This document shows, piece after piece, positions 15,001 through 64,000 of a stretch of DNA of 64,000 nt. Position numbers: made by a program. The DNA is from Octopus sinensis (taxonomy: Eukaryota), in assembly GCF_006345805.1 (NCBI RefSeq), contig NC_042998.1, positions 207,390,001 through 207,454,000 of the forward strand. Reading direction: 5' to 3'. The first letter of the stretch is position 1. Every line of letters begins with the position of its first letter.

Positions 15001-18000
15001 CGAGGCTATAATAGAAGACACATGCCCAAGGTGCCACGCAGGGGGACTGAACCCGGAACCATGTGGTTGGTAAGCACACTACTTACCACACAGCCATGCC
15101 TGCACACATTTTTTAAATGCAAGCTACCAGATTACTTGAATCCAGATGTGACTTTTTATATACATATAAAATGATGGGCTTCTTTCAGTTTCCATGTGCC
15201 AGATCCATTCACTATCCAAACATGATCGATGCCAGGCCTGCCTGACTGGCTCCTGTGCCAGTGGAACATAAAAAGCACCCACTACACTCTTGGAGTGGTT
15301 GGCATTAGGAAGGGTATCCAGCTGTAAAAACTTTGCCAGAATAGATTGGAGGCCGGTGCAGACACTGGCTCTCCAGATCTCAGTCAAACCATCCAACCCA
15401 TGCCAGCATGGAAAATGGACGTTAAACTATAAGACTTTATGCCAGGTGAGGAAATGCTAAAGTATGATTAAAGGACGAACACAAGTACCTTGCTATAGGG
15501 GTGGGAGAGGGGATACACAGCTGCCCTATATTATATAAGGGTGGCAGTAACTGGAAAGAAGATAAAGAAGTGGTGACGAGATTCCAGAACCTACTATGAA
15601 GGGAGTGAAAAAAATAATGGATTATTATAGATTATAGCTTAATCTTGGAACTGCTTAAAGAGCTAATGCAAGTGTTGGCCACGTCTACAGAGATGATATT
15701 TAACACGGCACCCCCCATGCCGGCGTCGCCTACAGACCAAACCCTGCGCCATGTATAAAACACCTAGTACTCTGTGGAAAGTAATTGGCATTAGGAAGGG
15801 TGTCCGTCTGTAGAACCCATGCCAAAACAGACAATTGGAGCTTGGTGCATCTCTCCAGCAGACTAGCTTCTGTCAGACTGTCCAACCCATGCCAGCATGG
15901 AAAACGGACGTTAAATGATAATCCTCAATAATACAAAATTAATCAGAAGCTTTTTTAGATTTTTAGCTTTCACCTTAAAAATTCAGATTCATTTTAGATT
16001 CTTTTTCAAAGATTTTTGAAACTAAGCGATTCGAAACCAACACATTTCAAGTTTAGACACAAATAAATATTTATTCAATACATATTTTTTTCCTTTTTTC
16101 AGGCATTAAATTGTCCCCGTTCCATTAATTCTTTAATACAAGGTGAAAAATCAGGTTTCGGTGGACTCATAACCAACAGTTACTCATCAGCAAAAGATGT
16201 GATCTTCAAAGGGGATGGTACATTTCTATTGAGTTTTGGGGATTTCCTCCATTGGGCCAGATTCCTACGAACATTTTCAAAGGGAGGATCTTCATTATCC
16301 AATGATGGACTTTCAGGAAGAGTGACGATTATGGATGGTTTCATAGGAGACTGCTGTAGTGTCTTGTCACTCCAAGAAATGGCGACGGGCGATTGAAAAA
16401 TTTTCTGAAAGATAAAGAATATTGTTTCAGTTCTTGACACTAGACCAGCAATGTCAGGGGAGGGGCAAAGATCATATTGACCCCAGTATTCAACTGGTAT
16501 TGTTTTTAATCAACCCCAAAAAGGATAAAAAGAAAAGTCGACCTCAATGGAATTTGAACTCGGAACATAAAGACATGCAAAATACCTATTTCTTTACTAC
16601 CCACAAGGGGCTAAACATGGATAGGACAAACAAAGACAGACAAACGGATTAAGTCGATTATATTGGTACTTATTTAATCGACCCCGAAAGGATGAAAGGC
16701 AAAGTCGACCTCGGCGGAATTTGAACTCAGAATGTAACGGCATGCGAAATACCTATTTCTGTATTACCCACAAGGGGCTAAACATAGAGGGGACAAACAA
16801 GGACAGACATAGGTATTAAGTCGATTACATCGACCCCAGTGCGTAACTGGTACTTATTTAATCGACCCCGGAAGGATGAAAGGCAAAGTCGACCTCGGTG
16901 GAATTTGAACTCAGAATGTAACGGCAGGCGAAATACCGCTAAGCATTTTGCCCGGCGTACTAACGATTCTGCCAGCTCGCTGCCTTACGAAAGGTAAATG
17001 ATATCAATTCAGAGCAACAGAAATAAAGAATAGAGATCTTAGAATTGTGGTAAACATACCCGAAACGAACTCAGTGTTTGCTTTATATTTTCCAAAAAAT
17101 CCCAACTCCTGCCAGCAAATTTACTGACAAATTCCGAATTGTCTTCAAAAGATTCAAAGAAGTTTTGTATCTTAGTCAAGCTGACGGGGGTTTCAAATTC
17201 ACCAATATGCAACCGTGTGTACAAAAAACTCTGCTCCAGTGAATAGCCATCACAGAACTAAGAAAGAAAAAAATATAGAAGACAGCTGTTATGACATGAG
17301 TAAATAGTATCGCAACAAAGATTTCCTAGGACGGTACTATGAATAGAGTTAGAGTATTAGCGACAACGGGAGGGAAGGACTAGTGGGGCTGGCAACAAGA
17401 GGAAGGCGAGATTGTTCTAGCAGCAAATGGAAGCAGTGCTGGCGGCACACTGGAGGGGGCGCTGACGGCACACTGGAGGGGGAGCAGGCAGCACACTGGA
17501 GGGGGAGCAGGCGGCACACTGTTGGAGGGGGGGGAGCAGGCGGCACACTGGAGGAGGGGGAGCAGGCGGCACACTGGAGGAGGGGGAGCAGGCGGCACAC
17601 TGGAGGGGCTGGAGACAGTGCAGGTGCTTTTTACGTGGCGCCGGCACCAGTGAGGTTACCAACTAGCTTGCAGAACGAAGACCTCTCAGCTGAGAGGAAT
17701 TACAACTGAGGGAAGTAGCCGTGTGCCAAACGAGAAGTTAGACAGAGATAGCAATGCAAAAAAACCTGAAACAAATATCACAACACACTCTGCAAATCAT
17801 TTACGTTTGTTATTGAAATAGAATGTAATTTAATTCAGAATTCCTTTTGTTTGGTTGGGAAGAACAAGTTTGTGCTCACAGACTCTGGAAGTTCTACAAG
17901 GGGCAACAGGAAAACCTTCCATATTTTACACAGCCAAAGGCGTTAGGTTTATGAACCCAGGCAAATAGCAATGGAATCTTTATGTCGAACAAATATACCC

Positions 18001-63000: not shown

Positions 63001-64000
63001 ATCTCTTCATAGATATACTGTGTTAAAAAATATTGGAACGCGGCGAACATCGTCCAAGCAACGAATCACAAGAGGGCCGGACGCATTTCGGCCTACTTCG
63101 ACCAGAGGGACGAATCATTCAGCTACTACGACTATCAAAGAGTCATCGTCTCAGACCTTCCACAGCTGTTTCTTCGCTATCGATTGACATAATTTCCTGT
63201 CCCCCAAGACAAAATTAATCGATAAATATCTAACAGCTAATCAGTTATAAACAGCTGATTCTGAATTAGTAATCTCAAACAGAATTATAAAACAAAAACG
63301 TAGAAGAGGTTTCGAGTTTCACTTACTTGGCAATTTGGTCGGTTCCGTTACAATCTTTAACTGATGCTTCGTTAGTTCAGCAATTTCTGGAATTGGTTGG
63401 TTGTAGCAGACATTCGGAGGAATTATACCATGTTGTATGCACATCACACACTTCAGCAAACTTACCAAACCTTAAACGGAACCAAGAAATTACTTGTGAA
63501 AAATTGCAAGCCACTAGGCCAAGCTACAGGGTGTTCAAAAGGTTCCTCCGCAGTAAGTGTTTTATTGCTAAATAAATATTTATAAGATGGTGTAAGACCA
63601 CAAAAGAATACATTAGACTTTACAAGACTTTAAAAAACTTTATAAGAGGTGTTGAAAGTGTCCTCCTTCATTTTCAATACATATGTTGACTCTTCTACGC
63701 ATGTTTTGAAATATATCTTGGAGAGTCTGATGCAGAGTCTGATATGGTATGGACCGTGTGAAGGTTATGATTGCGTCTTTTAGCTCATTAATGGTTTTCG
63801 GGCGATTCTTGTACACTGATCCTTTACTTGCTCCCCAGAAAAAAGTCTGGCGGTATTACATCAGGTGATCTTGGTGGCCAGTGAAAAACTGGAGTCAATA
63901 TAATTGATTTGCCCCTTCCCTCGAAATAATCCGTTCACCGAAAATCTCTTGGAATAGCGTCATGGTGATGCGCAAAGTATGTGCTGTAGCTCCATCTTGC

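What the first reader, a model, noticed from the sequence alone, without database searches (positions are those of the whole stretch)
16180..63470. Hidden FAS-derived megasynthase whose modifying and loading domains look catalytically dead while the reading frame is kept
Seen: 19 exons from 53581 to 16180 join into about 1,025 codons with no stop, collinear with animal FAS. Established: MAT needs GHSxG Ser, a downstream Arg and the AFHS His; DH needs HxxxGxxxxP; ER and KR need Gly-rich NADPH loops. Here MAT reads GYGLAE, AYLIG and PVYNT, no DH His motif is visible, ER reads TLLIHPPYDVV, and KR is a stub. The one KS exon visible and the WDHS linker are better conserved. Inference: a slimmed pseudo-synthase or KS-centred scaffold kept by selection. 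It could be a regulatory heterodimer partner of a real FAS, or a condensing enzyme fed by trans-acting domains. I know of no described animal example, but cannot check that here.
Basis: partly seen in the sequence, partly recalled or inferred. Interest (0 to 1): 0.88.

Follow-up and report, generated by a model that had tools for sequence, protein, structure and literature searches.

The report
Octopus FAS-like gene, hollow and truncated
This is a real octopus gene descended from fatty acid synthase whose middle domains have lost their catalytic residues; it belongs to a mollusc-wide family already noted in print as unexplained, and this copy has also lost part of its two working ends.

Summary
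I find 18 GT-AG exons (not 19) from 53581 to 16183. They make 982 open codons (not about 1,025), plus the KS-tail exon 63470-63327, collinear with animal FAS.

The gene is not hidden or unique. Two Octopus bimaculoides RefSeq models (534 and 1022 aa) and an unnamed 919-aa public model identical to the window's exons cover it.

It belongs to a mollusc family of about 1,850-1,975 aa. That family matches the 'mo-clade 4 AFPK' of Lin et al. 2024, in which only KS, AT and TE were recognisable and the chemistry was called unknown.

Across the family members compared:
- KS Cys-His-His and TE Ser-Asp-His are kept.
- MAT Ser and Arg, DH His, the ER and KR NADPH loops and the ACP Ser are all lost.

So the dead middle is ancestral to the family.

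The window's copy is damaged further:
- One KS exon is absent.
- The stop at 16182-16180 replaces a Glu of the orthologue.
- 132 codons of the TE, with its Ser and Asp, are absent.
- One donor site is overrun by a repeat.
- One exon carries a frameshift.

All lesions lie outside the central open frame. Whether that centre is still under selection or the gene is a young pseudogene stays open.

The parts
63327..63470 (-). KS C-terminal (tail) exon; the rest of the KS lies beyond the window end
   Evidence: 92% identical to P0001 aa 202-250. Acceptor AG and donor GTAAGT seen. Pfam Ketoacyl-synt_C E=0.0074, below the cut-off.
53402..53581 (-). KS-MAT linker exon. The orthologue's preceding exon (P0001 aa 251-277, GFGG motif) is absent between 63327 and 53581; skipping it keeps phase 1
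52593..52738 (-). linker / start of pseudo-MAT exon; the public model P0123 starts at the Met at 52730
47609..47711 (-). pseudo-MAT exon
   Evidence: 94% to P0001
46056..46220 (-). pseudo-MAT exon with GYGLAE (in place of GHSxG) and AYLIG (in place of AYWRG)
44450..44596 (-). pseudo-MAT exon, ends in phase 1 (donor GTGAGT)
43571..43679 (-). pseudo-MAT exon with PVYNT (in place of AFHS). Not used in the O. bimaculoides RefSeq models; with it the frame runs from the P0001 part into the P0122 part
   Evidence: AG|..|GTAAGC, phases 1 to 2; 100% to P0123 aa 185-221
41286..41548 (-). post-MAT linker exon; P0001 ends here in another frame (41549-41520), P0122 starts at the Met at 41517
37362..37499 (-). 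linker exon with the WDHS motif, entry into pseudo-DH
35299..35399 (-). pseudo-DH exon (position of the lost HxxxGxxxxP)
35074..35194 (-). pseudo-DH exon
34441..34525 (-). pseudo-DH exon
31550..31731 (-). pseudo-DH C-terminal exon
26901..27113 (-). exon at the place of the deleted pseudo-methyltransferase / start of pseudo-ER
23865..24017 (-). pseudo-ER exon ending TLLIHPPY
22776..22976 (-). pseudo-ER exon starting DVVYLFLIE (in place of GSGGVGQAAI)
21178..21395 (-). pseudo-ER exon
17060..17257 (-). exon after the pseudo-ER (place of the KR; no KR similarity)
16180..16404 (-). linker exon ending in TAA at 16182-16180, where the orthologue has Glu690
16105..16179 (-). in-frame continuation of the same exon after the stop (LLVMSPPKPDFSPCIKELM...); homology ends at 16105 with no GT donor
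   Evidence: 21 of 25 identical
7959..8111 (-). TE exon relic (P0122 aa 848-898). A dispersed repeat abuts its 3' end and no GT donor is left. The 132 codons before it (P0122 aa 716-847, with GYSFG Ser and LLDGS Asp) are absent from the window
4165..4339 (-). TE exon relic with a 1-base frameshift near 4199 relative to the orthologue
1163..1353 (-). last TE exon with the catalytic-His motif (DGNHQTF) and the stop codon

Best explanation
The window holds most of one long minus-strand octopus gene, from 63470 to about 1163. It belongs to a mollusc-wide family derived from animal fatty acid synthase.

The family:
- The condensing end (KS Cys-His-His) and the releasing end (TE Ser-Asp-His) are intact.
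- Everything between is a catalytically empty shell. MAT lacks its Ser and Arg, DH lacks its His, ER and KR lack their NADPH loops, the pseudo-methyltransferase and most of the KR are deleted, and there is no ACP serine.
- The FAS-like DH-ER fold is still kept in the predicted structure.
- The dead middle is therefore an old family trait, not a peculiarity of this locus.
- Inferred: family members work as a KS plus TE held on a structural core. They would act on substrates carried by something else, such as CoA esters or the ACP of the ordinary FAS, because they have neither a loading serine nor a carrier serine.

Octopus: the orthologue's KS has Asp for the first His.

This window's copy has also lost one KS exon and the catalytic half of the TE, and it carries a premature stop, a repeat-disrupted donor and a frameshift. 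At most it makes a truncated protein that most likely catalyses nothing. It is a gene in decay or just truncated.
For: Family membership:
- The KS-tail and last TE exons are 92% and 90% identical to O. bimaculoides P0001 and P0122.
- The best longer relatives of P0001 are four mollusc proteins of 1851-1945 aa (E 4e-82 to 4e-70), ahead of true FAS at 5e-64 and weaker.
- Those four hit the window collinearly.
- In a KS tree of 22 rows, P0001 sits in a 7-row clade (SH-aLRT 97) with six family members. With P0129 (89) that clade is sister to 8 animal FAS.

Motif table:
- KS Cys is present in 7 of 7 family rows that cover it, His1 in 7 of 7, His2 in 7 of 7.
- TE Ser, Asp and His are each present in 9 of 9.
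- MAT Ser is present in 0 of 8, MAT Arg in 0 of 8, DH His in 0 of 8, the ER GSGGVG loop in 0 of 9, the KR loop in 0 of 9 and the ACP DSL in 0 of 8.

Domain and fold evidence:
- Pfam sees KS, the KS extension and TE. AT is weak or absent, ER is a trace, and there is no DH, KR or ACP.
- The family profile matches human FAS in five collinear stretches, including ER at 1.6e-11.
- The predicted structure of P0122 (mean pLDDT 65.9; residues 130-610 and 715-1020 mostly above 70) matches the FAS TE (TM 0.77-0.82) and the FAS modifying core (E 3e-16).

Print: passages and section 8 of PMC10764717 describe mo-clade 4 as KS-AT-TE only, found in all mollusc classes including cephalopods, with unknown biochemistry.

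Lesions in the window.
Against: - Post-stop exons are only slightly more diverged from the orthologue than pre-stop exons (170 of 195 identical against 887 of 971; Fisher p=0.079). The decay, if real, is therefore young.
- Derived changes are not more frequent on the window's lineage (12 against 14 by family majority; 4 against 9 by P0124).
- All lesions lie outside the 982-codon centre, which fits continued selection on that centre rather than plain decay.
- The lesions rest on a single assembly.
- The equation with mo-clade 4 rests on matching descriptions, not on the authors' sequences, because the supplements are closed.
- The 74-residue KS gap and the split into two genes in O. bimaculoides come from automatic models.
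- The trans-substrate mechanism is inference only.
Confidence: 0.6

Rival explanations
1. In this species the central 982-codon frame (pseudo-MAT, pseudo-DH, pseudo-ER, linker) is still kept by selection. It would be made as a stand-alone non-catalytic protein, a scaffold or a regulatory partner, for example of the ordinary FAS.
For: - There is no stop or frameshift in 968 whole codons, and all 36 splice sites are canonical.
- All 5 lesions counted as independent fall outside this stretch. The chance of a lesion-free stretch this long is 0.013 for 5 lesions, 0.037 for 4 and 0.10 for 3.
- If the 84 amino-acid differences were neutral, 4.7 nonsense changes would be expected and none is seen (P=0.009 for both lineages together).
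- There are fewer differences at family-conserved columns (26 of 371 against 81 of 776; p=0.065).
- A 53%-identical cephalopod relative, P0124, keeps the same dead ER motif.
Against: - The stretch was defined by the lesions themselves, so the test is post hoc.
- The statistics are marginal (p=0.065 and 0.079).
- No expression data are available.
- No start codon or promoter for such a product is shown; the public model simply starts at an internal Met.
- No synonymous-rate comparison was possible, since no cephalopod DNA is held in the collections.
Confidence: 0.25
2. The gene is intact in the animal, running KS to TE as in O. bimaculoides. On this reading the missing exons, the stop and the frameshift are assembly or haplotype artefacts.
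For: - The two missing-exon intervals are rich in repeats: a 1.6 kb (GA)n array at 56831-58446, and 60% dispersed repeat in 7900-16200. Assemblies can collapse in such places.
- The retained TE exons are still 82-90% identical to the orthologue.
Against: - Five different kinds of lesion would all have to be errors.
- The nonsense change is a clean substitution in unique sequence.
- The window has no N.
- The unnamed public model P0123 stops at the same codon, though it probably comes from the same assembly.
Confidence: 0.12
3. There is no gene: a chance chain of open frames picked by eye.
For: Exon by exon, Pfam sees almost nothing. Only 1 of 20 exon frames gave a FAS-related match, and that one was below the cut-off.
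Against: - 84-97% identity, exon by exon, to two RefSeq proteins of another octopus.
- 14 collinear profile hits.
- 36 canonical splice sites with consistent phases.
Confidence: 0.01

Closest known systems
mo-clade 4 animal FAS-like PKS (AFPK) of molluscs, Lin et al. 2024, Nat Commun 15:236 (PMC10764717)
   Same: - A mollusc KS-containing protein closer to FAS than to PKS.
- Only KS, AT and TE are recognisable.
- It has a TE, unlike mo-clades 1-3.
- It is reported from all mollusc classes including cephalopods, with unknown biochemistry.
- It matches.
   Different: - The passages and section I read say most of the protein lacks predictable similarity to other proteins.
- Here the middle is shown to be a collinear relic of FAS MAT, DH and ER with every catalytic motif lost and no ACP serine.
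- The window's copy also lacks the TE catalytic half and one KS exon.
- Identity with the authors' sequences could not be checked.
Animal type I fatty acid synthase (FASN; structures 2vz8, 8vf7)
   Same: - Domain order and many exon-level blocks are collinear.
- The TE and DH-ER folds match.
- It has a high intron density.
   Different: - No MAT Ser or Arg, DH His, ER or KR NADPH loops, pseudo-methyltransferase, KR core or ACP serine.
- About 600 residues shorter.
EcPKS1 / EcPKS2 (mo-clade 1 AFPKs; structures 9cq1, 9cti)
   Same: FAS-derived mollusc synthases. The condensing region is similar (E 1e-44 to 9e-54 to P0001).
   Different: By the paper, these are active polyketide synthases and mo-clades 1-3 lack a TE. 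The present family has a TE, a dead AT and no carrier domain.
Structural pseudo-domains inside FAS itself (pseudo-methyltransferase, pseudo-KR)
   Same: Catalytically inactive domains kept for architecture (pseudo-methyltransferase as stated in PMC10764717 section 8; pseudo-KR recalled).
   Different: Here nearly the whole loading and modifying part is of that kind, not one subdomain.

Membership tests
mo-clade 4 AFPK (Lin et al. 2024) | KS closer to animal FAS than to PKS, but outside the canonical FAS clade | tested here: met
   Tested on the orthologue P0001, because the window holds only the KS tail. In a tree of 22 rows, P0001 falls in a 7-row clade (SH-aLRT 97) that is sister, with P0129, to 8 FAS. 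Animal sequences are split from the bacterial PKS at 100. Two rows, P0132 and P0134, were uninformative long branches.
mo-clade 4 AFPK (Lin et al. 2024) | Only KS, AT and TE recognisable by domain predictors | tested here: met
   Pfam. P0002: KS, KS_C, extension, TE, AT at 36.5 bits, ER trace. P0004: AT below cut-off. P0005: no AT. Octopus: KS in P0001, only TE in P0122.
mo-clade 4 AFPK (Lin et al. 2024) | TE domain present (mo-clades 1-3 lack it) | tested here: inconclusive
   Present and intact in the orthologue P0122. In the window only the C-terminal TE exons remain; the 132 codons with Ser and Asp are absent.
mo-clade 4 AFPK (Lin et al. 2024) | Groups with the authors' reference sequences | not testable with these tools
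   The sequences are in supplementary data, which are closed. Only one paper in the library uses the term.
Functional animal type I FAS | MAT GHSxG serine, downstream Arg, AFHS His | tested here: not met
   The window reads GYGLAE, AYLIG, PVYNT.
Functional animal type I FAS | DH HxxxGxxxxP | tested here: not met
   The aligned position reads ITGHFSEYYDAVSIL, with no Gly or Pro spacing.
Functional animal type I FAS | ER and KR glycine-rich NADPH loops | tested here: not met
   ER reads HPPYDVVYLF. There is no KR match.
Functional animal type I FAS | ACP with DSL serine | tested here: not met
   No PP-binding hit at E<=0.01. The aligned region has no DSL. Residues 612-714 of P0122 are modelled as disordered.
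Functional animal type I FAS | KS Cys-His-His | tested here: not met
   Orthologue P0001 has Cys kept, first His replaced by Asp, second His kept. The window itself does not hold these exons.
Pseudogene (non-processed) | Frame-breaking lesions relative to an intact orthologue | tested here: met
   In-frame TAA, a 1-base frameshift, lost donor sites and absent exons.
Pseudogene (non-processed) | Lesions spread over the whole length; divergence at the neutral rate | tested here: inconclusive
   No lesion in the central 982 codons. Protein identity is 91.3% before the stop and 87.2% after it, p=0.079. No DNA of a second species was available for dN/dS.

The most novel reading that the evidence does not exclude
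In this octopus the FAS-derived gene has shed both catalytic ends. What selection still keeps is only the empty MAT-DH-ER shell, made as a stand-alone pseudo-enzyme, either a scaffold or a partner of the ordinary FAS.

More widely, the whole mollusc clade would be a carrier-less KS-TE enzyme with a dead AT that has to work on substrates delivered in trans. That architecture is not described for any animal synthase in the texts I could search.
Probability: 0.2. Interest if true: 0.7.

Novelty: new member of a known kind. Interest (0 to 1): 0.4.

Why it matters
The family is present in every mollusc class, yet its chemistry is called unknown in the one paper that names it.

This analysis shows that its unrecognisable middle is a collinear FAS relic in which every catalytic motif is gone. 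Only the KS and TE triads survive, and there is no carrier serine. That turns 'unknown biochemistry' into a testable proposal: a condensing and hydrolysing enzyme that depends on carriers supplied in trans, or a pseudo-enzyme.

The octopus copies, with KS His replaced by Asp and, in this window, loss of the TE half and a KS exon, give a natural series of further loss. That series could show which part is under selection.

For genome annotation, the two O. bimaculoides models are one gene, joined by exon 43679-43571.

Tried and rejected
- Pfam, exon by exon. Of 20 exon frames, one gave a FAS-related match (KS_C tail, E=0.0074, below the cut-off). Three others gave unrelated weak matches and 16 gave none. 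Single exons are too short and too diverged for Pfam.
- Search for the missing KS exon and the missing TE half. I used local alignment, sub-profiles and low-stringency tblastn on both strands. Only noise came back, best E 0.14 and 0.99.
- dN/dS. This was not possible. I used protein-level proxies instead, and they are marginal.
- ESM Atlas on the dead middle of P0122. The nearest clusters are bacterial PKS DH-ER regions at 0.87, below the level where a hit is more than a lead.
- Rfam and ARAGORN. They found one intronic tRNA and nothing bearing on the gene.
- Complex prediction with FAS. Not run: there is no specific reason to expect a pass, and a fail would say nothing.
- Joined model. Whole-protein comparisons used the public proteins P0001 and P0122 and the family alignment A2.
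- Literature. 'mo-clade 4' occurs in 1 paper. 'fatty acid synthase-like' with 'octopus' occurs in 1 paper (one passage read). 'KS-AT-TE' occurs in 5 papers, of which one is on animals (listing only). 'fatty acid synthase' with 'pseudoenzyme' and 'mollusc' occurs in 0 papers. The supplementary data of PMC10764717, which may list cephalopod mo-clade 4 sequences and intron maps, could not be seen.
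Full report
THE SEQUENCE. The window has no N. It looks like cephalopod DNA rich in dispersed repeats and microsatellites.

Exon by exon, Pfam is nearly blind. Of 20 exon frames, only the KS tail gave a FAS-related match (Ketoacyl-synt_C, E=0.0074, below the cut-off).

ORTHOLOGUES.
- The KS-tail exon (63470-63327) is 92% identical to P0001. 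This is XP_014775589.1, 'fatty acid synthase-like' of Octopus bimaculoides, 534 aa.
- The last exon is 90% identical to P0122, 'uncharacterized protein LOC106872932 isoform X1' of the same species, 1022 aa.
- tblastn of both proteins against the window gives collinear exons at 84-97% identity.
- So the window comes from another octopus, or from a close paralogue. I cannot tell which.
- An unnamed public protein, P0123 (919 aa), is identical to the window's exons from 52730 to 16183 and ends at the same stop. The locus therefore already has a public model.

GENE STRUCTURE.
- Junctions scored against the orthologues give 18 exons from 53581 to 16183. With the intron 63327|53581 that makes 18 introns, with 18 GT donors, 18 AG acceptors and consistent phases.
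- The exons hold 968 whole codons with no stop. Adding 14 split codons, counted by hand from the boundaries, gives 982 codons.
Its end coordinates are exact.
- Exon 43679-43571 (the PVYNT exon) is not used in the O. bimaculoides models. Without it the frame hits a stop at 41520, which is the end of P0001. With it the frame runs straight into the Met of P0122. The two RefSeq genes are one gene.

THE FAMILY.
- The best longer relatives of P0001 are four mollusc proteins of 1851-1945 aa from Potamilus, Sinanodonta, Gigantopelta and Pecten (E 4e-82 to 4e-70). They rank ahead of true FAS.
- They and their profile hit the window collinearly. Of 16 hits at E<=10, 14 are collinear minus-strand exons.
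- A full phmmer scan with P0122 found 18 representatives at E<=1e-30, and above about 1e-36 the hits are essentially TE-only. The family is small.
- In a KS tree of 22 rows, P0001 lies in a 7-row clade (SH-aLRT 97) with six family members. With P0129 this clade is sister to eight animal FAS. Bacterial PKS lie outside, and two rows (P0132, P0134) were useless long branches.

CATALYTIC RESIDUES.
- Family rows that cover each site keep KS Cys (7 of 7), His1 (7 of 7) and His2 (7 of 7). They keep TE Ser, Asp and His (9 of 9 each).
- None has the MAT Ser or Arg (0 of 8 each), the DH His (0 of 8), the ER GSGGVG loop (0 of 9; it reads PPIDT), the KR loop (0 of 9) or the ACP DSL (0 of 8).
- The AFHS His survives in 1 of 8 rows.
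- The pseudo-methyltransferase and most of the KR are deleted.
- Pfam agrees.

HOMOLOGY OF THE MIDDLE.
- The middle is still FAS-derived. The family profile matches human FAS in five collinear stretches: KS to early DH at 663 bits, ER at 1.6e-11 and TE at 3e-48.
- A predicted structure of P0122 (11-row alignment, mean pLDDT 65.9; residues 1-129 and 612-714 below 50) matches the FAS TE domain (TM 0.77-0.82). It also matches the FAS and MAS modifying cores (E 3e-16 to 5e-12) and the FAS ER.
- The ESM Atlas lead points the same way but is below the trust level.

PRINT. Lin et al. 2024 (PMC10764717; passages, all of section 8) describe 'mo-clade 4' AFPKs.
- antiSMASH predicts no domain and InterPro only KS-AT-TE.
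- Most of the protein is said to lack predictable similarity, 'indicating as yet unknown biochemistry'.
- The clade is present in all surveyed mollusc classes including cephalopods. Mo-clades 1-3 lack a TE.

The family here fits that description. I could not check it against their sequences because the supplements are closed. No other paper in the library uses the term. Torres et al. 2020 note uncharacterised FAS-type PKSs in octopus (one passage).

WHAT IS PARTICULAR TO OCTOPUS AND TO THIS WINDOW. The orthologue's KS reads Cys-Asp-His and its model lacks about 74 residues of the KS. That gap may be a model error.

Relative to the orthologue the window shows five lesions:
- (1) The 81-base exon for P0001 aa 251-277 (GFGG motif) is absent. 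Skipping it keeps the phase.
- (2) TAA at 16182-16180 stands where the orthologue has Glu690, and homology goes on in frame after it: FADE*LLVMSPP against FADEELLVMSPP.
- (3) Homology stops at 16105 without a GT donor, and the next 132 codons (P0122 aa 716-847, with the GYSFG Ser and LLDGS Asp) are absent.
- (4) A dispersed repeat abuts the end of exon 8111-7959 and no donor is left.
- (5) There is a 1-base frameshift near 4199.

The last exon, with the TE His motif, is intact.

IS THE CENTRE UNDER SELECTION?

For:
- All five lesions lie outside the 982-codon centre. The chance of a lesion-free stretch this long is 0.013 for five random lesions, 0.037 for four and 0.10 for three.
- No nonsense change is seen where 4.7 would be expected if the 84 amino-acid differences were neutral (P=0.009 for both lineages together).
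- Differences are fewer at family-conserved columns (7.0% against 10.4%, p=0.065).
- A 53%-identical cephalopod relative keeps the same open, dead middle.

Against:
- The stretch is defined by the lesions, so the test is post hoc.
- Identity before and after the stop differs little (91.3% against 87.2%, p=0.079).
- Neither lineage shows an excess of derived changes.
- There is no expression evidence and no synonymous-rate measure.

I leave this question open. I rate plain recent decay or truncation as more likely than a selected stand-alone scaffold.

VERDICT.
- It is wrong that this is hidden or undescribed, wrong that it is KS-centred in octopus, and it missed the TE.
- The gene is a new, partly broken member of a known but unexplained family.
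- The motif-level account of that family is, as far as my searches reach, not in print.

LEFT OUT. The joined-model step was left out. Names of the unnamed relatives could not be fetched.

Noticed in passing
window 54048-54120 (-): A tRNA-Arg (anticodon CCT) lies inside the 63327|53581 intron: Rfam tRNA at 44.4 bits and an ARAGORN call. It could be a real tRNA gene or the head of a tRNA-derived repeat.
   Followed up: partly
window 56831-58446: A (GA)n-type array of about 1.6 kb lies in the same intron in which the orthologue's KS 'GFGG' exon is missing. It is a place where an assembly could collapse.
   Followed up: no
window 47722-48505: A tandem duplication with a 380-base unit, 2.1 copies, 98% identical. 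It ends 11 bases upstream of exon 47711-47609.
   Followed up: no
window 10207-10342, 10938-11125, 56123-56376 and about 7900-7957: A repeat family with a 62-63-base unit. Sequence resembling its unit by eye, and covered by a dispersed repeat, directly abuts the 3' end of the TE exon relic at about 7957, where the splice donor is gone.
   Followed up: partly
window 16505-16937 and 25960-26378: Two SINE-like tandem pairs with 167-169-base units. Translated relics of what looks like the same element recur through the introns. 60% of 7900-16200 is dispersed repeat.
   Followed up: no
window 41549-41517 and 43679-43571: The O. bimaculoides RefSeq annotation splits this locus into two genes, P0001 (534 aa) and P0122 (1022 aa). 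Using exon 43679-43571 merges them into one frame.
   Followed up: yes
P0124 (unnamed, 640 aa, 53% identical to P0122): This more distant cephalopod-like relative has Glu in place of the TE catalytic Asp (LLEGS) while keeping the TE Ser.
   Followed up: no
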